51,035 bases of DNA from positions 37,040-88,074 of the forward strand of contig NW_014040231.1 of NCBI RefSeq assembly GCF_001186125.1, written 5' to 3'. Both the position numbers and the translations under genes were made by a program. The notes beneath the pieces are model-generated. The model was not told where the DNA came from. It did not search any database and saw only the letters and a program-made list of their open reading frames with translations. Source of the stretch: Sphaeroforma arctica JP610 (lineage: Eukaryota). Positions 3,301 to 47,096 of the stretch are shown here, piece by piece (position 1 is the first letter of the stretch; each line of letters begins with the position of its first letter).

Positions 3301-5484
3301 TCCACAAAATCATCATACACACCCACACCTGCGGGCAATGTCCCACGTGCCATCGAATGGCCGAGTCTATTTGATGTTGTGTCGGAACTTCCATATTCTC
3401 CCAATACTCGCCCATCTGACATACCGTCCCGGCGACCGGTGCACTCCACTCCGTTACCACCTAGCCCACAGCCACCATTGACACCACATCCTACTCTGGC
3501 TTCCCCACTCCTGCACCATCACGTGCGGAACCGGTAATTCATCCAACCGCGTTTTCGGTCATTCCCACCACTCGACCCGAGCCTACCGTACTCGAAATGG
3601 CATCACTTCTTGACGATAGTGTCCCTAAATTAATCCCTGCCGCTATGAAACTCAACAATTGGCCACTGTGGCAGACTGCCATCACGAAAGAATATAACGC
3701 CCATGTTCGCAACAACCTCTCTGATATCATAACACACGATACTGTACCGGCACACGCCAAAATAATACACTTTAAATATGTATTTGCTCGAAAGTATGAT
3801 GAACACGGACAACCAACCGTATATAAAGCACGCATGGTTGCACGAGGTGACGAGCAAAAGAAGGGTGACTCATGCTTGGTACACATTTGCACCAGCTGCA
3901 TCCGCCGTTGCACTCCAACTGCTCATTGCTGCCGCAGCAGCTTCTGGCAAGGTCATTCACCACTTTGATGTTGATACAGCTTTTCTCTACTGTAAAATTG
4001 ATACACCAGTATACATGTACCCCCCCAAAGGTGCCATTGAACTTGAATCTGTGCTTCGTCTTAAACGTGAACTATACGGGCTTAAACAAGCCGGACGCCT
4101 ATGGAACTTTGATATTAGGGACACATTAAAATAAAATGGCTTCACCCAAAGCGCTGCCGACGAGAACATTTGGAACCACACCACAAGAAACATTACAGTC
4201 ATTATGTATGTTGACCAAATTTGCCCTGCCACCCTCCCCAATACCAACGACAGCAAAAGACCTCGGTCTTGTGAAACACTTAGTGGGCCTTCTTGTAACT
4301 CAACATCTCAACGAATCTCTCAGTATTGACCAACATGCATACATCGAACGTATGCTGCATACATTTCAACTCACTGATCGCAATCCAAAACATACACCTG
4401 GCTGCGACACACACTCCGGCCACCTTGATGGGGCACCGTACACTGGCAAATACCGTCGTTTACTTGGCGCACTGGCGTACGCAGCAATCATGACACGCAT
4501 TGATATTGCATGCACTCTCAACATGCTTGCATCATTCAACACACAGCCACTACCGTCCCACTATGAGGCACTCGAGCGTATACTTCTATAACTTGGAACA
4601 ACCAAACAATATCGCATCACATACAACCCATTCAACAACCGCAAGGGACGTGAGGCAGATGTTCTTGTTGCTTACACAGACTTAGACTGGGCAACGTGCC
4701 CCCTCACCCGCAAGACACACTCAGGCATGCTCATATGTCGCAATAACTGACCTGTCTTTTGGAAATCTCAGCGTCAGAAGGTGTCAGTCCTAGCTCTGGA
4801 GAAGCCGAATACATGGCGGCTTCGGGAACTGCTCGAAACATAGCATGGACACGCAACACTCTTGCAGATTTACGCTGCTACCCCCATCAGCCTATATCCC
4901 TCCACATAGACAACCAAAGTGCAATTAAGATTGCACTTGGCACTGGCACGCCAAAGGGACTCAAACATATAGACATCCGCCACCACTATCTGCGCGACTG
5001 TGCTCGCCGCCACAGCTCAACCTTCACGACATCGAGAACCCCGCGAAATTACATACAAAGAGCCTTGGCCACACTAAGCACGAGAAGTTCACCACCATGC
5101 TAGTAGACACACGCTAACACAAACACACACCTTCACACACACACAACGCACCAACACATACACACGCACGCTATCTAACTAGTGCGAGACTGAAAGGAAC
5201 TTTCTCTTGTACCCGGCTATACATACATACCCTGGCACAAACATCACCCAGCCACATCATCCAGACAGCACCCCTGAAGCCCTGACCACTTTCGTCTCTC
5301 CAATTCAGTCTGTCATCAATTTTACCTGCCAATCACAAAAATTACATCCAGTCATCAATTTTTTACCCAATCACAAAAATTCATTCTCCTGGCCAATCAT
5401 AATCACACTCCAGCGACAATTCCCGACTCCTCGCGAATTTTCCCCTACTTCGAGAAACCTGTTCTAGGTATCAGGGAGGGTGTA
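334..5484 (+). mobile_element. Decayed Ty1/copia LTR retrotransposon (gag end, PR, IN, RT, RH), interrupted by insertions
   Basis: Domains are in copia order. Degenerate knuckle CDNCQAKGYN, protease HIDSGA (~562-579), HRVMGHLN and CPVC of the integrase Zn region, integrase core PQLNGLDER (~2140). RT motifs YKARMVARG, DVDTAFL, LYGLKQAGRLWN, MYVD (3820-4215). RNase H motifs YTDLDWA, EAEYMA, IDNQSAI, KHIDIRHH (4670-4990). Purine run AGGGAGGG then TG at 5473-5482. Many frameshifts and stops. Confidence 0.9.
690..1074 (+). repeat. Partial family-E LTR inserted in the copia element
   Basis: Reverse complement of 9146-9368 joined to 9584-9722. Contains TATAAAA at 908 and TCAGT about 30 nt downstream, and ends in ...ACA. 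Confidence 0.8.
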
Positions 5485-26340: not shown

Positions 26341-29300
26341 CGGTACTAACAGGTACAATCGTTACACAGACAATACAACGACTCTTTAGATGAGCGTGTA
26401 ATAATCCCTGTATATTGGAATGAAAATAAAATCCTTGCGTTGATTGATCCTGGTTCCGAAATATCATGTTTATCCGATCGCTTTGCATTAATGAAAGATA
26501 TCGAAAGAAGAAAATAAACAACTCATCTCATTTTAGCTGATGATAAAACTGCTAAGTGTGATACTATGGCCACAGATGTTCAAATCTCCCTGGCCGATGA
26601 TAGGAGTATCACTACTCAAGCTGTGATAGTTAAGATGTCACAGAAGTACGACATTATAGTCGGAATGAGTGATTTACTCACTCTAGATATAAACGTAACT
26701 GGCCTACTAACTAACATAGATCCATTAAAGGATCAATCAGACGATAAGTGTCTGAATCCATATAAGCCCCCGTCAGACACAGTCAAGGCATTAATACCTG
26801 ACTTTGCGGACAAAATCATGGATCTGATTCTTGTTAATAAGAAAATAAAGATCACAGATTGGGCAAAATTTCGCTTTAACGACGGATATGTCAGCCTTGA
26901 CTTAACCAAGGTAGACTTTACATAGTTAAAGTGTCCCTCAACGAACTATGTATCTTGGAGACACGAGGCTGTTGTAAAAGAACAAGTTGAGAAGTGGCTA
27001 GCAGATGGTGTGATAGAAATTAACTATCAACAAACGCCAGTTAACTTGGCACTGCTAGCCGTAGACCAACATAACTCTGACGGATCGTTTAAGAAAGTCA
27101 GAGTATGTTTAGATATGAGTCCAATAAATAAATTATTGCCGACTCATAGCTTCCACTTACCTCGTATTAACAAGCTACTGCGAAGGATGGAAGGTGCTAC
27201 AGTGTTTACAACTATAGACCTTACACAAGGATACCATCAAATGCAGGTATATGAACCCCACCGTAAATACTTTAGCTTTACGTGGAAAGGCAAACAATAC
27301 CGGTTCAGAGGTGCATCTTTCAGGTTACACTCTTTACCAGCATTCTTCCAACAAGTATTGGAAGAAATGTTTGCAGACATGCCTAACGTGCAAGTCTATA
27401 TAGATGACAGAGTCATTTTTTCTAAGACTACAGGCGAACACGCCGCATTAGTCAGACGAGTCCTTAAGAGACAAAGATTAACGAGAAGAAATGCCACTTC
27501 GCAATGAGCGAAATACAGCTCTTAGGCTACCATATATCTGGGGAAAGTAATAAGATCGACCCCGGTAAGGTAGAACACCTGTTAGATTGGCGAACACCAA
27601 CTACAAGAAGAGATGTTAACAGCATGTGTGGGTTTGTAAACTTCTTTTCAGATGGAGTACTACACTTAGCCGACTACCTTAAACCTTTTGGACACTTAAG
27701 ATGTCATAAAGGCAAACCAGGAGACTTGTGGACTAAATAGTGTGATGACGCATTTAAAGCGCTCAAACACGCAGTCCAACAAGCCCCAGTTGTACAAGGG
27801 CCAGTCGATGGCGTGCCGTTTGAAATAGCATTATATCAGGTTATAGATAACAAACCTAGATATATACAATTCTTTTGTCGAGCAATGAATGCTTCACAGT
27901 TGAATTATCCAACTGTTAAACAAGAGCTATTAGCCATAGTGGCAGCTCTAACACACTTTCAAGATTACTTATACAGAACAGCATTTACGCTGATGTGTAA
28001 TCAGAAATCTCTTCAATATATGAAAGAGATGAAACCCGACTCGCAATTACTTAGTCGCTGGCATGATATAATATCAAAGTTTCATTTTGATATAAGACAT
28101 CTGTCAGGAATACATAACCATTTACCGGATATGTTATCACGTATCGTACTGGACTTTAATAAATCCGTACATGAGTTACTAGCCACTGACTGGAAATGTA
28201 ATCCCAGGTGGTTTGAACTAGCTCAAAAGATATATGGGCCACATACCATAGATATGTTTGCTGCACATCATAATGCACAACTATCGAATTACAGGACTTT
28301 AAATCATCCTAAGGGAGACGCCTTTCAAATAGACCTCTCCCAACATAATGCGTGGGCTAATCCACCATGGCAGTTAATTGCCCAGCTATTACATAAAGCT
28401 ACCATCACGTTGTGTTGCCCATTACGGAGTAAAGATCCATGGCTCAATAAATTGATCAGCATGATACAATGCGAGCTAATATATATAGATAGGGAAGTAG
28501 ATACTTTCCTATATCAGGGTACCCGAGCCGTCCAGAAGACGCCCTGGAGACATATTATTATATGTCGTATAGGTCCCATTGAAACAACCAAATGGACCCC
28601 TTCTGAGACCTTCCTTAACAAGGTCAAAGAATCAGAGATTCCACTCTCTACCCAATTGAACGTTAAGCAGTTCAAAGGCAACACAGCATTTAACGTCTGT
28701 GCACAAGAAATACAATCTACTAATGACACTGTTAAGAAGCGTCAGTCTCTAGCTAGGACTCTGTTTAATAACATAAAGTCCAAGCACGAGGTCTTTCAAA
28801 CCTTATTTTTAAAGGGATTAATGAAAGACAATCGTGAAGCAAATACACATATAATGCGACTATTTAATAAGTCAGGTGTATCTAACGCACATGAGCGCGT
28901 TTATGACGCTCATGCAAAAGCAGAACAGGAGTCTGGAAACACTACAGACTTAGAGACCACGCAAGTGGATTCTCAACACCCTACCTTTATTCTGGAAGAG
29001 CAGAATGATAAAAACATTCTTGCTTGGCTGAAGCAAAATCATAAGCTGAAGCACCAAAACGTAGTAGAAGCACTTAAATATGCTAAGCGACATGGGATCG
29101 CGCACCCTAAGCTGGCAACTTTAGTTGACAGAGTATATCAGTCATGCACAGACTGTGATCTCAAATCAGATCCAGCGCTATGGTTTCGCACCGCTTAAGA
29201 GTGTGACTGAAGATGTTCCATGGCGCAGGGTCATCATTGATCTGGTTGACCTGCCCACGTCCGAGTACACAGGCGACCGTTACGTATGCCACTTCTTTGA

Positions 29301-31146: not shown

Positions 31147-33827
31147 GTTGCGCTCTGACGGAGAGATATAGTTCTGTTACTACACTCTTGTCCATGTATG
31201 AGCGTTGTGCGCCCGAGTCTACTAGTGTATTGTATGTATTGCCATTACTTTGTATGTCAATATGTAAGCGTTGGTCTCGTAGTGTGGGAAGTAAGGATAA
31301 AGGTTGGTAATCTATATCATTTGCATTTATTAACAACGTTTCTTCATCGGTATATACATTGAGCCTGTCAGCCAGGTTAATCATGTTTGCTTTCGCCCAC
31401 CAGTTATTTCAGTGCTCATCACCCTCTGTGATGTCTTCTACCTTGCCGGAGGTAATCAACAGTCTTGCTATTTGCATGTTCTTTTTTACCTGTTCTTCAG
31501 CCTGCTTGGCCTGTTTTGAAACCTACATGGTACATTTACTGAACCGGTGTGGGGCTGGCATCACTTTACAATAAGGACATGCACGCTCCTCATGCGCCCC
31601 TTTGTATTCTTGTACCTGTTTTGATTGGGTGCACCGTTGTCCGGTCTCTGTCATTTGTTCGTAGTAGTAGTGCTACTATGAAACTGGCCGTGGTTGGTTG
31701 TCTTTATATTGTGTTGCTTGCGCTGCTCTCTTAGCTGCTATCTTAGCATATGATCTCCCTGCACTTTGGATGTCGTTCTTATGTCCGCCTAAGTCATAGC
31801 GTGAAACACAATGTAATTCATATCCGATAAGTGACCCTCACTCCAATCAGGTTGTTTGTCTGCCTTGATGAGCGCATCCACTTGCGCTTGTTGTCCGTGG
31901 TACGTAAGTGCTTGGTATCTTTGGACCTTGAGAATTTGCAAGTGTATAGTTCATCTGTCTGATTTGCGGTAGCGCTCCTCTAACATCTTCATTGTTTTGT
32001 GCGCTCGCTCTGTGAGATCTTCAACGTTCAGTGTCTTATTCTGCATATCATTGAGAAAATTTTCTAACAGGTAGTCTACTGGATGGTGCATGAGTCTGTT
32101 AATAATGATTCTATTGAACTGTTCAGGATCTTTGAAATGCTTTTTTTGTCTGTGTTTCAGAGTCTCTGAAGTTATTGAGCATCTCCGTTGCATAAGTGGA
32201 ATCTAATAGATTTCTTACTAGTGCGGGGTACTGACACAGTGGCACGGACTTTCCTAAGAATAGGTTTCTACATTGTGTAGTGAATTCTATAATGTCTTCG
32301 CAATTTTCCACCACGAAGTAATTATTTTTAGGGAGCTTCGGAAATTCTGAAGTCCATAGTAGGTTTGCAAGGGCTGGTTCTTTTATCTGGTCGCCTAAGC
32401 GTGCACGCATGAGCTCTAACTCACTAATGTATTGACTTATTTGAATAAGTTCATCCTCTTCATCGTCACCACACTCGTAGATAGCTAAATCATATCGTCG
32501 TCTGAGTTCCTCATCCACGAGTGGCATGCGTCGTTCTGGCTGTTGGTCATGAATGTCTACTCTCATCTTGTGCAGAGTCGGTATAGGCATCGATACTGTT
32601 TGTTCCGGTTTGGACACAAATTTACTCACCAGGACGTGATTGCCTTGTCAGATGCGTTTGTCTATTTCCAACCGCATTGCTGAAGCTAATATGGGAACAC
32701 TTCCAGGTGTAGGCTGACTCGAGCCACTACCTGGGCTTGGCCCTTCTACTGGGCTGACATTTGCGCCATCCGTGCCATCACTTCCTTCTTCACCACCATA
32801 CACGCCTGCTCTGGTTGCCGTTGGCAGCTTGAGTTGTCTGTGATGGGTGTGTGGTATACTGCAGGTTATTAGTAAAGCCTCTTGTTATATTTTGTGCAAA
32901 TGCGCGCTTCACCCCCCTTGTCTTTGGTAATAATTTATATAAAATCAATAAAAATTGGAAGATATTTTACTTACTTTTGTATTGTTGTTGCTTTGCTGCA
33001 CTTCCGTGGGAAGTGTTGACCGTTCTGTATGGTACGGTAGCTTATTGCTTTCCTTCCTGTGATTGGAAGGATTTAAATAGTGTTTGTTAGTCAAGCTTAT
33101 TTCGTCACGTGTGGACTTACTTATGTTTATTTCGTCATGTGAGAACTTAATTTCTTGTGGGTGATCTCAAATGAGATGTTCGGTCCTGGTGACGTCACAT
33201 CTTGATGTGTCTATGTGAACGTCACCTTTTGATGTTCGTTCTTGTTCCGAACAGTGGCTATGTTAACTTCACCGCTTGATGTTAGATCCTGTGCCTAGTG
33301 AGATTGTATTTCTCCACTTTGTAACACTTATGCACGTTGTATTTCAAGGTCGTTGTGACTTTAATGTGATCTAACTGCAATCGTGTATGTCTACAACCCC
33401 ATCCAATTATTAGCATGTCTTGTTTCTCATGAACTATATTTTTACTGTTTGTTCTAAGCGTTGCCTCTGTTTGTTCGAGAGTGCCTATTCCTTGTTCGTG
33501 ATCATACTTGTGAGATGGATTGGAAATGGCTTGGAGTTTGATTTCAAAGTGTTTGTGCCTCAACACTAACTTTTATTTATCCGTTATTATGCGGATCTAT
33601 GCTAGACTGTGTTGGCACTATTTGTAACCTTGTCTTTTGCTTCGCATCACCTTGGCCAAACTGGCATCAGTTCTAGGCAGAGAAAGCCGCCAGAAATGTA
33701 CAACAATTAAGGTGGACGAAAACCAGAGGTTTGATTCATGACTGTACAGAACAACAGATTAGGTAAATAACTCGCGTCGTAATGGTACCTGTTCACATAG
33801 TATTGCCCATGCAGTATGGCGCACCAA

Positions 33828-36545
33828 ATGAGGCAGGCGCTACTACTGATAGTGGCGGTGCTCACACTCTTCGTGAGTGTGAGTGTGGCCATATATCCCC
33901 CTGACCACTGGGAGTATAGTACCGATATTGAAAACGGATCGCATCTGCACGAGGTATTTGTTTAAGCGATGGTATATACTTTTCAGTTTGCTGCGTGCGT
34001 ATGCGTATGTGCAGGTCTGCCTCCTCAATCGGTCTCTAAATGCGTATGTGTATGTGTTTGTGCGGCGTCATTTGCATGGGATATTGGGCCAGTGGATGCT
34101 TAGTATATATCTGACGGTTGCATTGGTTTGTGGTGTTTCATCACATAATAGTGATTGAGGATATTGGTGACGAATGTATATTGCACTAGCGATCGTACGC
34201 TGCTAGTGATTCATATTTATATTTAGATCTAGAAAGTTCTGGAAGGGAAAAGGCTTTGGAAATTTATTACGCCGAATGTGTTAAATATATTGTTTCATTA
34301 GTGATGTGTATACACTGCGAGCATTCTCGCAGCCCTTTTATTAATATCTGTTTCTCGACTTGATTTGTTTCTTCTTGTTTCACGAATAACCTGTATTGTG
34401 CATATTGTACTTGTGGTCACGATGCTCCATTAAAATTGATGTAGTCAATGAATAAACCTTAGAAAGTATATGTATTGATGCTTTATATTGCTACGAGTAT
34501 GTTTTAGACATAAATTTTCATACATGTAACTTCCTTATGGCGAATTCGTTGTGACAGCAAGGTCCACACTTCCCTATATGAGAGTATTATGAGGCTATCT
34601 TCACGTGTATGGTGAATATATTGTCAGCATACGGAAGATTTACGCCCGTGTTTGTATGCACACACATGATTACTCACAGATACATACATATGCATACAGG
34701 GTATGTTCATATTGACGAGCAGTATTCTAAATGGCTGTACGTCTATACAGCTGTACTTCTACTTTCATGCGTGTGCGTATACGTGCGCTGTGGTCGTGCG
34801 TGCATGCTTACATTCATACATGACAATAGCGTGATTGATCCAAGTCCTAACACCTAGAGACCGGCCAATATAGGGCTGTGTAGTGTGACATTGCCAAACT
34901 TTAATTTAACTTTCCACTCTAGAAATTGGTACTCGAAGTTCTGTTTTATCGGACCGTTCACTCAGTATTGAACTGACACAAAAAATCACCCCATTCTCTC
35001 TGTCAGCTTATCACGGAAACTCTCAAGGCCGACAAAGCGCTACTGGTGCGCTGGATTGCGTCCGCTGGGTGAGGGTGATGACAAAAGCAGGTATAGCTCT
35101 TTTATAGTCAAATGCAGGTATAGCCATTAAATAGTCAAATGCAGATATGGCTCTTGATAGTCAAGCAGGTATAAGCCCTTTTAAAGTCTCGGTTAGGAAC
35201 TGCTCGTTCTCTTGTCTGTCTTTAGTTGCACGGAGAACTTTTGTATAGCCAGTCAAGATCACTGACCACTACTCAACATATATCCATGGATAGGTATAGC
35301 GGCCTGCGAGTATTAATGAAACTTCTCGTACGCTTTTTCTGCCTCTAGCTGCATGGATAATTGTGGAAACACGAATCACTGACTATTATGCTCAAAATAT
35401 ATTAGAGTTTATTGACGAGTTTGTTGATTAGTTTTCTTGCTTTGTGCTGCTGTGCGCTTTTTTTCGACCGCTTATTGTATCTATCTACATACATCTTGAA
35501 AAACTTTATATCTCGTGGCTTCATTGGTATACTCACTTGTCACCTCTGTTCTTTCTTCATCTAACCATACTCTGGACCTTAAAGGTTCCGGCCTGGAATG
35601 TAATTGTGAAAGGTAAGCTGCCACTTGGTCCTTCGGAAGATTAGTTCCTTCGTTTTGATGGATTGGTGGTTTTGATCCCAAGAGTTGGCAGCATATGATC
35701 TGTTTGGATTAGAGGTGCAGATACTGTGTATGCGAACTCATATATGGTACACTCTGCCTGTGAGGTTTTGACCAAGTTCCGTATCGAGTAATGAACTCCC
35801 CTAGTGAATAATCAATACCCCTCGTGGACAATTCATAGTTAGTCATCTCGGTATCCTCAATTAATCCAGCCTACACACCGGCCGTTTACCACATTAGTCA
35901 ATACGAAATAGCAAGTCTTGGCCCGTTAGAAGTATGTGACCCGTCATAGCAAGTCTTAACAGATCAATGCCAGTTGTGTCACGTTTATATATCACTAGCC
36001 ATACGACGGCGTGGCCATTGTGTTGAGCTGACACTAGTTATGCATTTATCCGCCCAGAGTACCATGCCGCTGACAACATAGTGTTCGACGTCATGCTAAG
36101 CAAGACCCGCATCACCAAGTACGGTGCGGGCCAGGGCGGGTGGCCCACCATCCGATACTTCAACGCTGCGACGGGTATGTTGTAGCGACTGGATGGACGG
36201 AATATACACACTTTTATTGATAATCAGTGCATGATATGTTAGGTGTGCCCGCCTCAGTGCTGCTCCCCGTGCTTGTGTGATCGTTATCTGGAGCAAATTC
36301 GAACCCTTGCCGCTTTGAAGCGAGGTGTTTGATGTGTGTGGTGTGTGCAAAGATGTGTCGTATGTGCCCAATGGACAGGCCTACGAGAAGCAGACCACCC
36401 AGTCTATGTGTGGTGAACTGGGTGATATGAAGTACATGCGTGCCTATGTATGCGTGCCTATGTGGAGTTGGCCCGTGGCAAGTCCGGTGCTGAAGGGGAG
36501 GTAAGGGCGAAGCCGTCGCCAGATGCCGGCCGCATTGAGTTGTAG
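33828..36545 (+). CDS. Secretory thioredoxin/PDI-like selenoprotein with GUGUU motif (PDI_e-like); possibly a damaged copy
   Basis: Phase-compatible GT-AG exons. 33828-33953 MRQALLLIVAVLTLFVSVSVAIYPPDHWEYS... (signal peptide; alternative ATG 33816). 35007-35090 LITETLKADKALLVRWIASAG*G**QKQ. 35585-35612 VPAWNVIVK. 36058-36174 ...GAGQGGWPTIRYFN (thioredoxin cis-Pro region). ~36353-36545 AYEKQTTQSMCGELGD...; this acceptor is uncertain and a 14-nt duplication shifts the frame. Confidence 0.8.
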
Positions 36546-36818
36546 TTGTAGAGACACTCCCGCGAGGGGTCTTTATGGGCTTTGAGAGCGATTGGAGGTC
36601 GCGCTGATTCGCACTTGACGACTTAAGCTGAGCACGACACCGCAGAGGCTAAGTTCACCACTACGCACGCCACCTTTGGGCTGCAGTGCCCCCGGAGTTG
36701 GGTATACCTCGCCAGACGCAGTTGTTATCGTAGGTCAAAATCATATCTCCACCGAACTACTACCCCCGAGCTTGCACCAATAGTGTACGCGCGGGTGTGC
36801 ACATCCTTATCCAAGTAT

Positions 36819-36886
36819 CAAACGCTAACCATATGACGTACTTTCACGAAAGCCGTAAGGCGTGATCGCACCGACTCCAACGTTTG
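36819..36886 (+). promoter_or_regulatory. Putative eukaryotic type II SECIS element
   Basis: ATGA (36833-36), 12 nt, AAA (36849-51), mini-stem GCC-GTAA-GGC, helix II partner, then CGAC (36872-75). Outer helix CAAACG/CGTTTG. About 290 nt downstream of the stop of the UGA-containing gene. Helix II pairs at only 7 of 10 positions. Confidence 0.72.
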
Positions 36887-37937
36887 GCCATGGTTGCTAT
36901 GATGACGGCGGACTCTGTCTTTTTCATTCACAGAGTGCGTTTGGGTCATCCTAGCACCACCAAACAACCCCTCACTTCCAATTGCGTTGGTAGCTGTTGC
37001 ACACAATATATCCCGAGAGAAGCTCCTGATTAAACGTTGATAATTGCGGTTTCTATTTTTGTTCTTCTATGGTGTTTTCAAGGAGCCAGTATTAAACTTC
37101 ATTTTATTAGCGAGACTTTGTTTTTGAGCCAGTTGGCCGGCATAGCGATACTTATCACACAGACAGACCCGAGTATTAATAGCGCGAAGACGTTGAGAGC
37201 CAAACTGCTGGGTCTGCCCTGACTTTGCCTATGACACTCTTGAATGTACGCAACGGGGTAACAGAAACACATTTTCCGCGATGGAGTTGCGAACGTTGGT
37301 GTCTGCCAACGATGAAATGGTGATCATACGTGGTAGAAAAACACAGTTCCGCGAGAGAAAGTAGACGTTGAAGACGGGAAATGGTTTGAAGGTCTAGTAC
37401 GCAAAAGTATGAAAGCAATAGCATACATGTGAGGTTTCTGGCGCCAATGGGGCATCACATACAATTATGCATCATATTGCAATAGAAAGGGGTTAAACGG
37501 TGGTGAACAAACTAGCACAGACAACCATGGTTCATTCAAGTGACTTACAAATTTATGATGGTGCAGTGTTGTTTCTAGTAATGGATATAGATCATGCAAC
37601 AGATAACAGTGCCACCATACCCTTTTTAATCATAGCCTTCTAAATCAAACAGAAGACTATGGTTATATGTACATGTTCTGCCAGAAAATACAAACAAACG
37701 GAGTTACTCACCCATGAAAACAACACAAAACTAGTGCAGTACACGCCTATTTGCATCAGCACTCGACTGGGTGATGCAGTTGGCCACATCTGCTGCCGTA
37801 GGCAAGTTGTTTCCAATGGAAATACAAAAAAATCTGTTGTGTCAGCGGTGGCCCTCTACATGTGCGCAGTCCTTACTTTACTTTGTAAGACGGGGTATAC
37901 CATTTTAATAATGCTTGACTGGGATACTCTAGTTGGC

Positions 37938-37992
37938 CAGCGCCTACCGTCACTTATAGATGATGGAGCGCCTACCGTCACTCATAGATGAT
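37938..37992. repeat. 28-bp tandem duplication just downstream of the ASL stop codon
   Basis: agcgcctaccgtcact(t/c)atagatgatg occurs twice. Confidence 0.85.
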
Positions 37993-38014
37993 GCGTGCAT
38001 GCTAATTGTTATAT

Positions 38015-41000
38015 TTATGACGTCTCACTACCCAGTTCTTTTCGCAAACTCTCTATTTGTCCGAGCACTGACGACTTCGATGTTCCTCCTTGCGCTTGAT
38101 ACTGCAGTATTATAGATATGAAATGAATTAGTGGTTTGTAGTGCCTTATAGACAAAACTATACAAGCTGTTAGATTATAGCTTGCGTCTAAAGCATTTAC
38201 AAAGAACAGTTGATCAGTTATGTGGCAATGATTGCAATAAGGTGGGGACGAACAAACTATGCATTGGAGTTGTATGGGAATATATAGATTTCTCGTCAAG
38301 TTACAACTGCATGAATTGACATTCTTTTCTCAGAACACTACGCAACCAAAATTGCCAACTAGCTACGCACGCAGATATTGATAAATTTATAAGAATGAAA
38401 GTGACGCGGAACGGTCTAAAATTCCAGTGCAAACAGCTGCGGCCACCCTTACCTGTTCGACGCTATTTTCAAAGTCCCACAGCGAAGTGACATCGTCTCC
38501 GAAGTGCTTGGACACCGTTCGCATATCTGAGTAGCATAGAAATTGAAGACATACTTATGTTTATACAACTTCGTGTGTACGGCGATTGCGGATGTTCATT
38601 AGATAACACGCTTTGTGGAGTAGGTAATTCAAACACATTCGCCAATAATAAACTTTGCTGAGTCAAAACGCCGTGCCTCACCTCTGAATATTCCAAAGTT
38701 CACGTATTCCTAATAGTTAATCACTACATTCAATGGTTGCAAAATCGCATTTAATAGTGGATCGATATTCCTACCGCCATACATCGTGCGCCATACAACG
38801 AGGCAGAGAAAAATGAACAATGCATTTATACCTTCTTTAGTCAACCCATCCATTTCACACTTCTTGTCTTCGGCCATTCGTACGACCTCTCCGGCCAATC
38901 CATGCGCCTCGCGGAACGGAACCTGAGCAAAAACCGATACACAGCGTCATGGAGGGGATGTCAGATACGAAACCACCAAATACAAGAGTTGTGGTGCTGA
39001 AACGCTACGACGGATCGCCAATGGCAGCCGAGAGATATAGTGGAAATGATAGCAAGGCAGTAAGTGAGAATGAGTCCACAGAAAGCCTACCCCAGAGCAA
39101 AACTACCAGAGATGACCTGTCACTCATACAACGCATAAATTAACTACCAGACAAGGAAAAGAGACTAAAGAAACCAAAAATCTACCGAGTTTCAGGGTAG
39201 AATGCCAAGCTCAGAATTATACATCAAGATACAGACGCGGTCTCCACTGTGGTAGCTATATACACATCTCGCCGTGTATGGGCTTGAAGGTATGGGCTTC
39301 AGACATTTACGCCACGAGTGCATGCTGAATAACGAATACACTCGTTGAGTGCACATACCCCTTTTCGGACTAAGTAGTACGCGACATCAGTGGACAGCAT
39401 CTCAATCGCTAGAGCGCTCTTCATCTTCACCTCATCGATTGTCAGCGTTGACATCACCCCCTCTATCGCATCGATGCATGTGAACAGACGCAGAAGTACG
39501 AGCGTGTGTACGAGAATTTTAGTTTTTATGATACTAAACCTTATGGATTGTACAGACTGGTAAGGCTGCGTATCAATTATAGTAAATCCCAACCGACTCC
39601 ACTGTATGTCTATTACAACGAGGGTGCCTACCCCCCCCCCCACTAAAGCCATAATAAGTAGGTATAAATACCTCAATCTGTACCTACAGCCAAGCACATA
39701 TCAATAAAGATATGAATAGGAGGGGTGGGCGTACCTAAAATTATTAGAGCCACCGTGTATTCTGACAACGGCCAAGCACACACACACACATACCAGCTAT
39801 TTGCAAGAGGCTTTCCAACGTGTCCGTAACGTTGAATAGAGCCTCCTTATCCTCTTGCATGTCTTTGTTGTAGGTACTGGGCAAGCCTTTCATGGTCATC
39901 ATGAATCCAGCGAGCTGCATACACACAAGGTTGCACAGGAGTTGGTGGGGGTCAGAACGCATGAAGTGTGCCATGCCAAACGTGATATTCATGTCCACAA
40001 GGTAGCGTGTTTCCATATGCAGTTGCAAATAATCGTACATGCACGTGAGACATAATTGCGCACACTCGCGCGCACATGCTGACAGGGATTGATTTCGCCG
40101 CGATCTACGTCAAATATGTATGGAGGTACACTTAAGATCGGTCCAGTTAGGTGCTCTCCAGTCAAATGATGGTGCAAATCAATACATAGTATATATACAC
40201 ACCGATCCACTCTTCTCTCGAACCCCATGTATAAAGGCACCTTCTACAAAGCTTGACAATTGAATGCGATCTTATGCCATGGTTATGATCAGCCTGGTAC
40301 AGTGCAAACAGTTCATCCGGCAACAGAAACTCACTCGAACATAGATATTAAGGGATCCAAACATTTAAACTGACTTTATCGCGATCCTATACCAATCCAA
40401 CCCCCCCCCCCCGCGGGTCGCCCTTATCCAAAGGGTCAATTAGATACTGAGTCACAGCCTGGACAACTCTATCTCAAATAGATAAATGTAGCCTACCTGA
40501 CCGAACACTCGACCGCTCTTGCCTCTGATGAGTTCCAAACTATCGGCGTTTCTTTTCTGTGGCATAAGCGAACTACCCGTACTGTGCGATGACGGGGAAG
40601 TGGGTGTAGGAATAAGACATAATCAATGCACTTGCTTGCGTCTATATTAGAGCCTTTGTGTATATAACATAAACTTGCACGCTCACGTCAGTGACCCTAT
40701 TTATGTAGCTTGTTAAGCTTCAAGAGGGGAAGGTGATGTACAAGTGATCAAAGTTTGCAACAGTACGGTGGTATGTATATCGTACACAATTTTTGTTGAA
40801 CGCATGCATACAGAAACTCCACATTCAAGCCTATTCGCTTTAAGGCGGCCAACGACTCTACAAATTTAGTATGAAATAATGTAAGACTCAATTACGCGCG
40901 CATATGTATCAGTTGCCAAAATCACGCGAGAGACGGCTCATCTACAGTCCAGGTTCAGCCAAGCTCACCCCGGGATACACAAGCTGTTTCTTAGGGACAT

Positions 41001-44000
41001 ATGCATTATATATTTCCGTAAACATGCGTGCATTTTGAACTTACCTATACGCATCAGCAACCGAGATGAAGCCAAACTCCTTGGTGGAATATATGATGAG
41101 ATCCTCAGCCCACCCACTCAGATGCGAGGCTACTAGCGATGACCAGAACAAGAACTCTGTGATGAAGTCACGCGAACGGGTGGCCTCGAGACTATTGGCT
41201 GTAGGCCCTCTGAACCCTGTTCGAGAGAATCAAGGTTCGTATATATCAGACACGGCTTACCCATACGTAAACATGCTTGTGAATCCCACACATACAGATT
41301 CATATCCCTGCACAGAAATTTCAAAGCTAAACTGTGGCAAGAATTTAGACCAAGTGTTCATTCCAGGGACGATCGTATACGCTTATCTCAAATTCTCTGG
41401 CCCAATAATGTGCATAACGCGCGCACTTGATCGCGTAAGTGGACATAAAAAACTATCAAATAATCAAATGCAACAACAGAAAACAGCAGAAACAAAAATC
41501 CACGACATTGGGTAGACTTTTCACTACCAGTTGGCTGCTTGCCAAAGCTTTCCAGTCTAAGTGCGAGTCAGTTATTACACATACCATCAGATACGCTATA
41601 ACACACACCCGAAGGCAGCGAACGCACAATAACGAGTCCAGAGTATACCGTAATACATCTTACCTAACTCTTGCGCTATGAACTGCCTGTCCACACCAAA
41701 GGGATTGCCAGCCAATGCCCCTGAGCCCAACGGACACTCGTTGAAACGGTGGATGAGAGAGTCCAAAGCTTCCAGATCGTGTGTCAGTTGCGAGGCGTAT
41801 GAACACACCCAGTGTGACCAGCGGATGGGTTGAGCACGCTGCAAGCGACAACAGTGATGTTAGTGCCACAGAAGTCTAGATACTCAGATAGCGAATTCTG
41901 CACAGCGCATGTATAAGCTTGTTTGTTTAGTGTGTATATGTACATAATCCTAAATGTTTGATGTGTATGTGTGCATAGTGTTGTATGTTTAGTGGAGCAA
42001 ATGGCAACAGACATGCCCCCAGAGCACTCCTTTACAGATTGAAAGCTCGAGAGCGTTGCTGCTGAGCTATCTAAGTTACGCCGTCGCAGTATAAATCGAG
42101 CTGACCACCTCCATTATGATATGGTCATAGTTGCCATTCGATTGTAACAGCAACTGTCAGAAATACGAACCATCGGCACACGGGGAAACACCAAAATAAT
42201 TCAAACAGGTTCAAGACTCCATCAAAATAGCAAATTGACACTCATTCAGATTGTGGTACATCTTAATCGTTATTAAAGGTCCCATGTCATATGCCAACAC
42301 TTGCTACACTTTAAAATCATTTACTGAATTTGATAGGGCTTCCGGTCTGCAACGTTGTGGTACAAATTATACACATCTACTAGTAACTATAAGCATACCT
42401 GTAAGTGTGTGTAACCGGGCATGAGGGCGTCTACTTCTTGTTGTGCTCTGTTGAGATGTACACTGATTAAACTCACTAGATATTTTCTGATTGTTGCCGC
42501 CTCTTCGCGTAGCCACAATCGCATGTCGGTCGCTACCTGCCATGGTGTGGAATTTGATAGGCTGTTTGAGTATCGACGAACGACGCAACACTAGAGATTT
42601 ATATATAGATGTATATCTACATGTGTACATATATATATATACGTCGCATACATGATTCGAGTACCTGACAACTCAAGGAGCCAGTACAACATTTCAGATC
42701 TATTCTGGCACTCAAATTATTCTAGACAATGCGTTAAACAAATGGTTTTCTGTAGCATAAGTTCAGTACTCTCATTTCAAGCGCAATCGATACATCAGTG
42801 CGTATGCATTTACAGATATATTTATACAACGACACAGTAGTCCACCGAGTCTTTGCTATTGCGGACAGTGTGGAAAAACAGAACGACATATGGTACTAAA
42901 CTCTTTGGAGATGCATCTCGCAGGAGTATACGTACACTTTATGCATGTATTAATCCCGTCTATTTGCTTACATAGCAACTACATTAAACATACCTGATCA
43001 TTTCTGCTACGACCGGTGTGTAATTTTCCGGCGACATCCCCCACCATCTCCTTCAAACGACGCTCGTTTGCTGTGTGAATGTCCTCATCTCCGGACTATG
43101 GAGCAAAAATGACAGAGATAAATGCTCTGAAACATTATGTATCGATTATCTACAGGATCCGATAACATCGTTTCTTGGAATCATACACTATAATCCAGAG
43201 CAAATATAATTTGCAGTACTGTGCTCTAATGTGTCAATTCGAGTGGGAATTTCCTTACAAAGCCCGGTTAGGCATGTCAAATGTACAGGACCTACAGACG
43301 CATGCAATGGTACATCGGACTAACCTTGATAACAAACGACCCTGCCTTCCACTCCTCCAAGACGTCCTGTAGCCCCTTTTGTAGTGTTTCAGATTCAGCG
43401 TCCGTAATGAGACCTGCTTTAGCGATAGCCTTCGCGTATACAATCGACCCCTCGATGTCCTAATATTGATAGTTGAGATTTTACCGCAAAGAAGTTCATA
43501 GAAGTTCAATGTAGATGCTGGGTATGAACTATAGATCCGGCGGCATTAGAGGGTTTCCATCGAGGTTATATCTGGACTTAAAGGAGTTGTTATATGTATG
43601 ATACACCTCCCAATTCAAGCTTCGTAGCTTGTTTATTTGTATCACACATATAGCACACAGCTTGAAGGCAATATTCTTAAAGATATATCAGCAACACCAA
43701 CATGGATATACAATACTCAACACTGAAATATTAAATGAACACGAAGCAGTCATTGATCGATGCAATAATCCACATTCATCTTAAACGTGGGCCAATTTTC
43801 TGCAATGAGGGCGTCTAGTATTGTGCTAAAACGCCTTACCAGCTATCATGAAGCAAAGTTTCGCATCACTGGCGACATATGAGGAATGGCGCACACATTC
43901 CGACTATGAGATTAAAGATACGTACGCGTGCACAGGTCGAATATAAAATAACTAAATGTATTCCTTTGAAACTCAAATCACTAAACGAAAAACGAATACT

Positions 44001-44296
44001 ATTATAATGTAAATTCCAAATCACTCGAAATTCTGCCACCTCATATACCGCCATAAAAGCGTTGAACCTTACTGCTGACAAAGCATGAACAGGGGTGATC
44101 ACTTCGTCATATCTGTCCATACATTCGCTTATCAAATAGAACGAAGATTGCTTTGTAAACAAACACTCTGTCATACCTGTTTGTACATGCGTTTGTCGAA
44201 TCGAATGGAAGCGTTAAATTCCTCCATCACCGGATCCTGCGCGCCGGTAAAGCGGCCACCCCACAGCTTGGTCTCTGTTTGCTTTGGTTGCGTCAT
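38015..44296 (-). CDS. ASL: Argininosuccinate lyase, 12 exons, ~467 aa
   Basis: Exons 44296-44177, 43459-43325, 43095-42994, 42536-42399, 41838-41664, 41216-41045, 40581-40497, 39914-39794, 39462-39359, 38922-38832, 38526-38453 and 38101-38015, all GT-AG, totalling 1404 nt. Motifs [74 protein letters not shown] and GVPFREAH. Confidence 0.97.
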
Positions 44297-46784: not shown

Positions 46785-47064
46785 CTATAGCTCTTCATCA
46801 TCACTCAAGCCCAGTTCTGGGTATTCTCCACATACCACCCACTTGCATTTCACAAAACCGCCGTATTTGGGCTCACAGGTGAAGTACCTCTTGCCTTCCA
46901 CACTGCCATCGTTCTTGCCGTATGGTTCATCGTACTCTATGCCAGCCCAGATTCCTGATGGCAGATGGATTATAGCCACATCAACACTCGAATCCAGTAC
47001 AAGAATACGTAAATTCAACATGCTCATATATATTTATATATATACATATCCATATCCATACACG

Positions 47065-47096
<32 letters not shown>

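What the first reader, a model, noticed from the sequence alone, without database searches (positions are those of the whole stretch)
33828..36545. Hidden selenoprotein gene with three clustered UGA codons (G-U-G-U-U) at a thioredoxin active-site position
Seen: exon 35007-35090 reads GGG TGA GGG TGA TGA (TGA at 35070, 35076, 35079). It follows a strand-like LLVRW segment and precedes Q(V)PAWN, where CxxC sits in PDI/thioredoxin. Neighbouring exons supply a signal peptide and GWPTIRYF. Known, from memory: a GUGUU-motif PDI-like selenoprotein (PDI_e) was described in diatom and haptophyte selenoproteomes, and adjacent Sec-Sec is very rare. Inference: if this host is not an alga, this extends the family or points to lateral transfer. 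The ORF track misses it.
Basis: partly seen in the sequence, partly recalled or inferred. Interest (0 to 1): 0.88.

Follow-up and report, generated by a model that had tools for sequence, protein, structure and literature searches.

The report
Broken triple-selenocysteine gene in animal relative
A single-celled relative of animals carries a spliced gene of an enzyme family so far reported only from algae, with three UGA codons at its active site that likely encode selenocysteine, but this copy has three breaks that two close relatives lack, so it is likely a recently dead gene.

Summary
The G-U-G-U-U exon is real and belongs to the PDI_e selenoprotein family (described 2020, called algae-only). 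The first three introns are spliced in transcript-like contigs. 118 of 119 metagenome loci matching the motif are homologues with TGA at all three places, and a SECIS-like element lies at 36833-36875. The host is Sphaeroforma arctica, an ichthyosporean, so the family reaches opisthokonts; I found no report of that. The fourth intron has no acceptor and stays in the transcript, giving a stop at 36184-36186 after 121 codons. A 14-bp duplication frameshifts the last exon, and one conserved codon is missing. Two relatives about 95% alike splice that intron, lack the duplication and keep the codon. Best reading: a transcribed, recently pseudogenised copy of an ER redox selenoenzyme that looks intact in close kin (0.8). 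Selenium incorporation, the host's full Sec machinery, and lateral versus vertical origin are untested or unresolved.

The parts
33671..33953 (+). Exon 1 (5' UTR from about 33671; ATG at 33828; hydrophobic leader of about 21 residues, then the family's I-Y-P start)
   Evidence: X3 contig start, joint 33953/35007; signal peptide read from sequence and family alignment, no predictor run
33954..35006 (+). Intron 1, 1053 nt, GT..AG
35007..35090 (+). Exon 2 with G-U-G-U-U; TGA at 35070, 35076, 35079 (codons 64, 66, 67)
   Evidence: unchanged in relatives X6 (35061-35155, 0 differences) and X7 (35005-35091, 0 differences)
35091..35584 (+). Intron 2, 494 nt, GT..AG; starts inside a 27-nt minisatellite
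35585..35612 (+). Exon 3 (28 nt, V-P-A-W-N)
35613..36057 (+). Intron 3, 445 nt, GT..AG
36058..36174 (+). Exon 4 (strand 3, G-G-W-P-T-I-R-Y-F cis-proline strand)
36085..36086 (+). Lesion 1: three bases present in both relatives are missing here; the residue between the invariant F and D is lost
   Evidence: table 4 (X6, X7); 116 of 119 loci have G/A/M/C there, 0 have no residue, 3 not scored
36175..36366 (+). Lesion 2: intron 4, spliced in both relatives, retained here; donor GTATGT intact, no AG at the place of the acceptor (about 36363-36364); in-frame TAG at 36184-36186
   Evidence: table 5 (joint 36175/36367 in X6, X7); (no joint)
36367..36546 (+). Former exon 5 coding part (A-Y-E-K, M-C-x-E-L-G, Y-M-R-A-Y-V, ending R-I-E-L stop), now 3' of the stop
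   Evidence: 27 residues match the family profile, 26.6 bits
36436..36463 (+). Lesion 3: exact 14-bp tandem duplication, a frameshift, absent from both relatives
   Evidence: D4; table 4; present with 0 differences in X3, X4, X5, X8 and X9
36833..36875 (+). SECIS-like element, type-2 shape (AUGA, 11-nt arm, AAA, GUAA-capped ministem, GA)
   Evidence: 1 hit in the UTR; 2 of 200 shuffles; best hit in the window for a homologue-derived sequence model, E 0.21; weak stem: 8 of 11 pairs, -6.8 kcal/mol against homologue median -12.8
36895..36955 (+). Strong hairpin in the 3' UTR, not SECIS-shaped; role unknown
   Evidence: -25.5 kcal/mol, z -4.3; picked by eye, so the z-score is flattered
36547..37053 (+). 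3' UTR; contigs end at 37032-37053, X6 with an A-run loose end; X7 runs on to 37329

Best explanation
This is a spliced gene of the PDI_e triple-UGA thioredoxin family in Sphaeroforma arctica that carries three breaks absent from two close relatives, so it is likely a recently pseudogenised copy of an endoplasmic-reticulum selenoenzyme. How the intact form would work (inferred): a signal peptide sends it into the ER and a C-terminal R-I-E-L holds it there; the 3' SECIS recodes the three UGAs; U64 and U67 take the places of the two cysteines of PDI's C-G-H-C and cycle as a diselenide on thiol or disulfide substrates, while U66 takes the histidine's place and tunes or relays the redox step. The Sphaeroforma form is short (about 174 residues if the relatives keep the window's stop) and lacks the ERp29-type helical domain of most homologues. 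What this copy does: introns 1-3 are spliced and intron 4 is kept (shown), so translation would end at a UGA or, with full recoding, after 121 codons, about 30 residues short of the end of the thioredoxin domain and without the retention signal (shown from sequence); the product would likely not fold (inferred).
For: Family: as-transcribed product scores 143.7 bits on a profile of 66 homologues; 37 of 48 columns conserved in 90% or more of 43 homologues are matched, 6 of the 11 misses lying in the absent helical domain and 1 at the intron-4 break. UGA is kept: 118 of 119 loci, pattern allowed TGC/TGT; 21 of 21 database proteins spanning the motif read GWGWW, which I take as UGA translated as Trp by gene callers, none Cys. 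GUGUU aligns on W-C-G-H-C. A folded homologue (pLDDT 90.7) has a thioredoxin domain over residues about 23-157 (Z 13.8 to ERp46 Trx2); the window's product stops at about family position 123. Lesions: tables 4 and 5, both relatives; all gap letters of their exon-4 and exon-5 pieces (3+28 in X6, 3+26 in X7) are accounted for by listed indels, none other in coding sequence. The relatives' states match the wider family, so the window's states are derived. Not assembly errors: the same letters stand in X3, X4, X5, X8 and X9, 4 coded studies, though X9 may be the window's source. No close second copy: 2 of 405,908 records of X9 laid at 80% likeness, the locus itself and a 64-nt piece upstream of the gene.
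Against: The copy still has its three UGAs, a SECIS-like element and transcripts. Exons differ less from the relatives than introns do (X6: 1 difference in exon 2, 1 in exon 4, 3 listed in the coding part of exon 1; introns 21 of 548 and 53 of about 1000), which fits constraint until recently or still. Contigs drop rare isoforms, so a minor spliced form is not excluded. 96 substitution rows were not shown, so a nonsense change in the relatives' exon 5 is not excluded. No protein or selenium data. The window's own exons 2 and 4 match no Pfam family alone. Sec machinery of the host is supported only by one listed SPS gene.
Confidence: 0.8

Rival explanations
1. A minor isoform uses the cryptic AAG acceptor at 36352. 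It would give a 168-residue protein with the whole thioredoxin domain, a five-residue change in one loop and a frameshifted tail without R-I-E-L: a secreted but active selenoprotein.
For: That acceptor is in frame with the old exon 5; intron 2 of this gene uses an AAG acceptor; UGAs and SECIS-like element are retained.
Against: No such joint in 4 runs; no branch-point-like CTRAC word near it, whereas introns 1-3 have one (sequence shown); the missing residue in strand 3 and the frameshift would still apply.
Confidence: 0.08
2. The 121-codon product is a new secreted mini-protein that keeps U-G-U-U and serves to carry or store selenium, or as a redox peptide; loss of the C-terminus and retention signal was selected.
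For: Leader, three UGAs and SECIS-like element are intact; intron-4 retention is the only form seen; coding differences to relatives are few.
Against: Three independent breaks on a short branch, one inside a core strand; about a quarter of the thioredoxin domain and an invariant cysteine are lost; SECIS stem at the weak end of the family.
Confidence: 0.06
3. The UGAs are plain stops or are read as Trp/Cys, and the locus was never a selenoprotein gene in this lineage.
For: Host tRNA-Sec, eEFSec and SBP2 could not be examined; Rfam found no SECIS; the candidate does not fold better than shuffles (z +1.1).
Against: Relatives keep an open frame through and beyond the UGAs with a spliced last intron; UGA fixed in 118 homologues that allow Cys codons; SECIS-like hits in 25 of 62 homologue UTRs against 1 of 62 reverse strands and 0 of 62 shuffles; an SPS gene is listed for the species.
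Confidence: 0.04
4. The stretch is algal contamination or a mis-assembly.
For: The family was reported only from algae.
Against: Same window as an exon 100% identical to S. arctica SARC_05238; one 13.2-kb DNA contig spans the whole gene with 0 differences; orthologous transcripts about 95% alike, introns included, in two other labelled organisms.
Confidence: 0.02

Closest known systems
PDI_e selenoprotein family (GUGUU), Jiang et al. 2020, PMC7539508 (passages read; Fig. 2a and supplement not seen)
   Same: G-U-G-U-U motif, thioredoxin fold, SECIS-like element in the 3' UTR; 33-48% identity to 43 marine homologues.
   Different: Host is an opisthokont, where the paper says algae only (Haptophyceae, SAR). 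Short form without the C-terminal helical domain. This copy is broken at three places; the passages read describe loss of the motif in Fistulifera, not a pseudogene with the motif intact.
ERp29 / Drosophila Wind (thioredoxin fold plus helical D domain)
   Same: Full-length homologues share the two-domain layout: Foldseek aligns 209-214 columns to Wind, Pfam ERp29 in 7 of 43 members at E up to 0.05, ESM Atlas features 0.93.
   Different: ERp29/Wind lack a CxxC site (own knowledge); the Sphaeroforma gene has no D domain even when read past its breaks.
Canonical PDI a-domains (ERp46/TXNDC5, P5/PDIA6, PDIA1)
   Same: Active-site position, helix 2 and cis-proline strand align; Z 13-14.
   Different: C-G-H-C is replaced by U-G-U-U; one catalytic domain only.

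Membership tests
PDI_e | Three neighbouring Sec codons forming G-U-G-U-U | tested here: met
   feature taken from PMC7539508
PDI_e | Homology over the thioredoxin-like domain to GUGUU proteins | tested here: met
   143.7 bits on a profile of 66 metagenome GUGUU proteins; the paper's own sequences could not be read, so the family was rebuilt from the motif
PDI_e | Thioredoxin fold | tested here: met
   for homologues: Pfam Thioredoxin in 43 of 43 at E up to 0.05, model and fold searches; the window's own joined product was not folded
PDI_e | [quoted passage not shown] | tested here: inconclusive
   pattern hit at 36833-36875, 2 of 200 shuffles; E 0.21 with a sequence-only model; Rfam blank; weak stem
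PDI_e | Intact reading frame through the whole domain (functional member) | tested here: not met
   window copy: stop at 36184-36186, frameshift at 36436-36463; relatives X6 and X7 have no frame-breaking indel
PDI_e | Selenocysteine actually incorporated | not testable with these tools
   needs 75Se labelling or mass spectrometry
PDI_e | Host has Sec machinery (tRNA-Sec, eEFSec, SBP2, SPS) | tested here: inconclusive
   no genome held; one SPS gene model listed for S. arctica, Sec position unaligned, in PMC4561486 supplement 11; name absent from supplements of PMC5330540 and PMC4342817
ERp29/Wind-like | C-terminal all-helical D domain | tested here: not met
   window gene has 26 residues after the domain, none of the conserved D-domain columns; present in most homologues
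Canonical PDI | C-G-H-C active site | tested here: not met
   U-G-U-U at the aligned place

The most novel reading that the evidence does not exclude
Ichthyosporeans, close single-celled relatives of animals, acquired an algal triple-selenocysteine ER oxidoreductase by eukaryote-to-eukaryote transfer, trimmed off its helical domain, and are now losing it: S. arctica is a natural null whose close kin still express the intact gene, a ready pair in culture for testing how adjacent UGA codons are decoded and what the third selenocysteine does.
Probability: 0.4. Interest if true: 0.62.

Novelty: new member of a known kind. Interest (0 to 1): 0.45.

Why it matters
It overturns the published 'algae only' range of the one eukaryotic family described with consecutive Sec-Sec by placing it in Holozoa, which means either transfer between eukaryotes or an ancient gene lost in animals and fungi. 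It also catches a selenoprotein gene in the act of dying, with UGAs and SECIS-like element still in place, next to relatives about 5% diverged that keep it; that gives a natural null and wild-type pair for a protein with no biochemistry in the papers I found. The family itself is known and common in marine eukaryotes (about 370 matching stretches estimated), and this copy probably makes no working protein, which caps the interest.

Tried and rejected
Whole genome: not held, so no search for tRNA-Sec, eEFSec, SBP2 or distant paralogues. No run is on record as RNA ('no RNA holder listed'); X13 laid nothing, no evidence either way. Exon 4 alone found no homologue of 75-2000 aa in the 5.8-billion set. 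Rfam over 33000-39500 found nothing at E up to 5. A covariance model of 21 homologue SECIS candidates came out without base pairs, so scores sequence only. Prokaryotes: 1 of 192 pattern stretches passed tblastn, and it is an out-of-frame chance match; one of the two patterns used Cys codons, so the test is limited. Viruses: 0. Origin: a quick tree (109 rows, 146 columns; careful search unfinished) puts the window on a long branch (0.64) with three unlabelled metagenome proteins at 99, but these were fetched for likeness to exon 4 and carry no taxon: inconclusive. Intron positions in three genomic homologues read in detail (L003, L052, L067) match none of the window's four: inconclusive. The hairpin just after the UGAs, seen in 26 of 61 homologues (z below -2; 3 and 4 of 61 in control segments), is absent here (z +1.05), but more than half of the homologues lack it too, so it does not diagnose decay. 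Other candidate acceptors in intron 4 (36242, 36257, 36378, 36393, 36402) give short out-of-frame tails. Literature searches for prior reports: searches gave only PMC7539508 for the family and nothing on Sphaeroforma selenoproteins; most subscription papers are not in the library. The wide structural search was not run.

Full report
Observation. The exon at 35007-35090 reads GGG TGA GGG TGA TGA at the stated places, and the word occurs once in the window. Four transcript-like runs laid on 33500-38000 show GT..AG joints for introns 1, 2 and 3, and one 1370-nt contig of X3 covers 33671-37032 through the UGA exon without a difference. The runs are only guessed to be RNA; the joints are absent from the DNA-like run X9, whose single contig spans the whole gene unchanged. 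With all three UGAs read through, the product has 121 residues.

Family. A degenerate pattern for R-W-I-A-S-x-G-[U/C]-G-[U/C]-[U/C] gave 119 metagenome loci from 21 of 64 parts of the collection. 118 are homologues with TGA at all three places; one (L085) is a chance match. The pattern demands this context, so divergent or Cys forms with another context are not counted. A profile search found 1354 database proteins; of the 120 listed, the 21 that span the motif all read GWGWW, which I take as UGA read as Trp by gene callers. The window's product scores 143.7 bits on a profile of 66 full-length-like homologues, and the piece at 36367-36450 scores 26.6 bits on the next part of the profile. PMC7539508 (passages) describes this motif as PDI_e, 12 genes in 10 algae, and concludes it is found only in single-celled algae; its Fig. 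2a and supplement were not seen, so identity with its sequences rests on the motif and fold.

Structure. An AlphaFold model of homologue L019, U entered as C, has pLDDT 90.7. Residues about 23-157 are a thioredoxin domain (Z 13.8, rmsd 2.2, 110 aligned, to ERp46 Trx2), followed by three helices; Foldseek aligns the whole to Wind, and Pfam and the ESM Atlas point to ERp29. Profile alignment to PDIs puts U-G-U-U on C-G-H-C and W-P-T on the cis-proline strand. So the first and third Sec stand for the catalytic cysteines and the middle one for the histidine. Most full-length homologues end in xDEL/xEEL-like words. The Sphaeroforma gene, read past its breaks, lacks the helical domain and ends R-I-E-L; similar short forms occur elsewhere (L067, L105, P0125, P0130).

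Host. An exon of the neighbouring CAP-Gly/TBCB gene is 100% identical to SARC_05238 of Sphaeroforma arctica JP610, Opisthokonta, Ichthyosporea. No prokaryotic or viral homologue was found. Searches found no report of the family outside algae or of selenoproteins in Sphaeroforma. An earlier AI note reports a foraminiferan member (unchecked, and within SAR).

The copy is broken. Runs X6 and X7, labelled as two other organisms and 3.5-5.8% different in introns, differ from the window in three shared ways. They have three more bases behind 36085, which restores the residue between the invariant F and D that 116 of 119 loci have and none lacks (3 unscored). They splice intron 4 (joint 36175/36367, one letter between), giving the family's G-x-x-G-x-x-Y spacing; the window has no AG at that place and no branch-point-like word before it, which fits a small deletion or substitution at the acceptor (inference). 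They lack one copy of the exact 14-bp repeat at 36436-36463. All gap letters in their exon-4 and exon-5 pieces are explained by listed indels, and their UGA codons are unchanged. Because the relatives agree with the distant homologues, the window's states are derived. The lesions stand in five runs of four coded studies, probably one strain. The truncated product would lose about 30 residues of the thioredoxin domain, an invariant cysteine (C138 of the model) and the retention signal. No copy 80% alike or more was laid from X9 (2 of 405,908 records); a distant paralogue is not excluded.

Recoding signals. A SECIS-shaped pattern hits the 3' UTR once, at 36833-36875 (2 of 200 shuffles); the same pattern hits 25 of 62 homologue UTRs, 1 of 62 reverse strands and 0 of 62 shuffles. 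The window's stem is weak (-6.8 against a median of -12.8 kcal/mol over 28 hits), Rfam is blank, and a sequence-only model ranks it first in the window at E 0.21. An SPS gene model is listed for the species in a supplement of PMC4561486 (that part and the abstract's start seen); the rest of the machinery is untested. With intron 4 retained, the last spliced junction lies 46 nt after the first UGA rather than 163 nt; by the 50-nt rule known from animals (own knowledge) this would shelter the transcript from nonsense-mediated decay and may explain why it persists. That is inference.

Against my reading. The UGAs, the SECIS-like element and transcription all persist, exons differ less than introns from the relatives, contigs hide rare isoforms, and 96 substitution rows were not shown. 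One joint in X6 (35087/36055) may be skipping of exon 3 or an unlaid 28-nt exon. These leave about 0.14 for a functional minor or truncated product.

Origin. Unresolved. The quick tree groups the window with three unlabelled proteins chosen for likeness, and three genomic homologues share no intron position with it. Transfers between Ichthyosporea and stramenopiles have precedent in the nitrate pathway (PMC6400420, passages), direction debated. I put transfer slightly ahead of ancient inheritance with loss, about 55 to 45, on the patchy known range alone.

Verdict. A real new member of a known family, in a lineage where it was said not to occur, and in this organism most likely a young transcribed pseudogene.

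Noticed in passing
window 35082-35190: A 27-nt minisatellite starts at the exon 2 donor and repeats the CAG|GTATAG word; copy number differs in the relatives (more in X6, fewer in X7). A second donor at 35118 would bring a stop at once.
   Followed up: partly
window 36895-36955: Strong near-perfect hairpin just 3' of the SECIS candidate (z -4.3), holding AUGA twice but without the AA loop or GA pair of a SECIS.
   Followed up: partly
loci L002-L080, 48 nt after the UGA UGA: A coding-region hairpin right after the adjacent UGAs in 26 of 61 homologues (3 and 4 of 61 in control segments), like a Sec redefinition element; not mentioned in the passages of PMC7539508 that I read.
   Followed up: partly
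alignment A2, positions C138, C160, C168 of L019: Three invariant cysteines outside the active site; C138 is kept in the Sphaeroforma exon 5 and could partner the extra Sec. Distances in the model could not be read.
   Followed up: no
L004, L006, L051, L070 3' UTRs: Two SECIS-like hits each, as might be expected for three close UGAs.
   Followed up: no
L067, L105, P0125, P0130: Short family members that end soon after the thioredoxin domain with a retention-like word; the helical domain seems to have been lost several times.
   Followed up: partly
window about 38400-44290, minus strand: Argininosuccinate lyase gene in many exons (Pfam Lyase_1), tail to tail with the selenoprotein gene; a well-covered transcript piece begins near 37890.
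   Followed up: partly
window about 46800-48500, minus strand: Tubulin-folding cofactor B-like CAP-Gly gene, SARC_05238.
   Followed up: yes
window 1-32000: Decayed LTR retrotransposons of two kinds (RVT_2 near 3766-4131, RVT_1 near 26926-27504) fill the region upstream of the gene.
   Followed up: no
window 37629-37669: A 41-nt piece shared with other transcripts of the organism (loose ends on both sides in X3, X4, X5), probably a repeat fragment.
   Followed up: no
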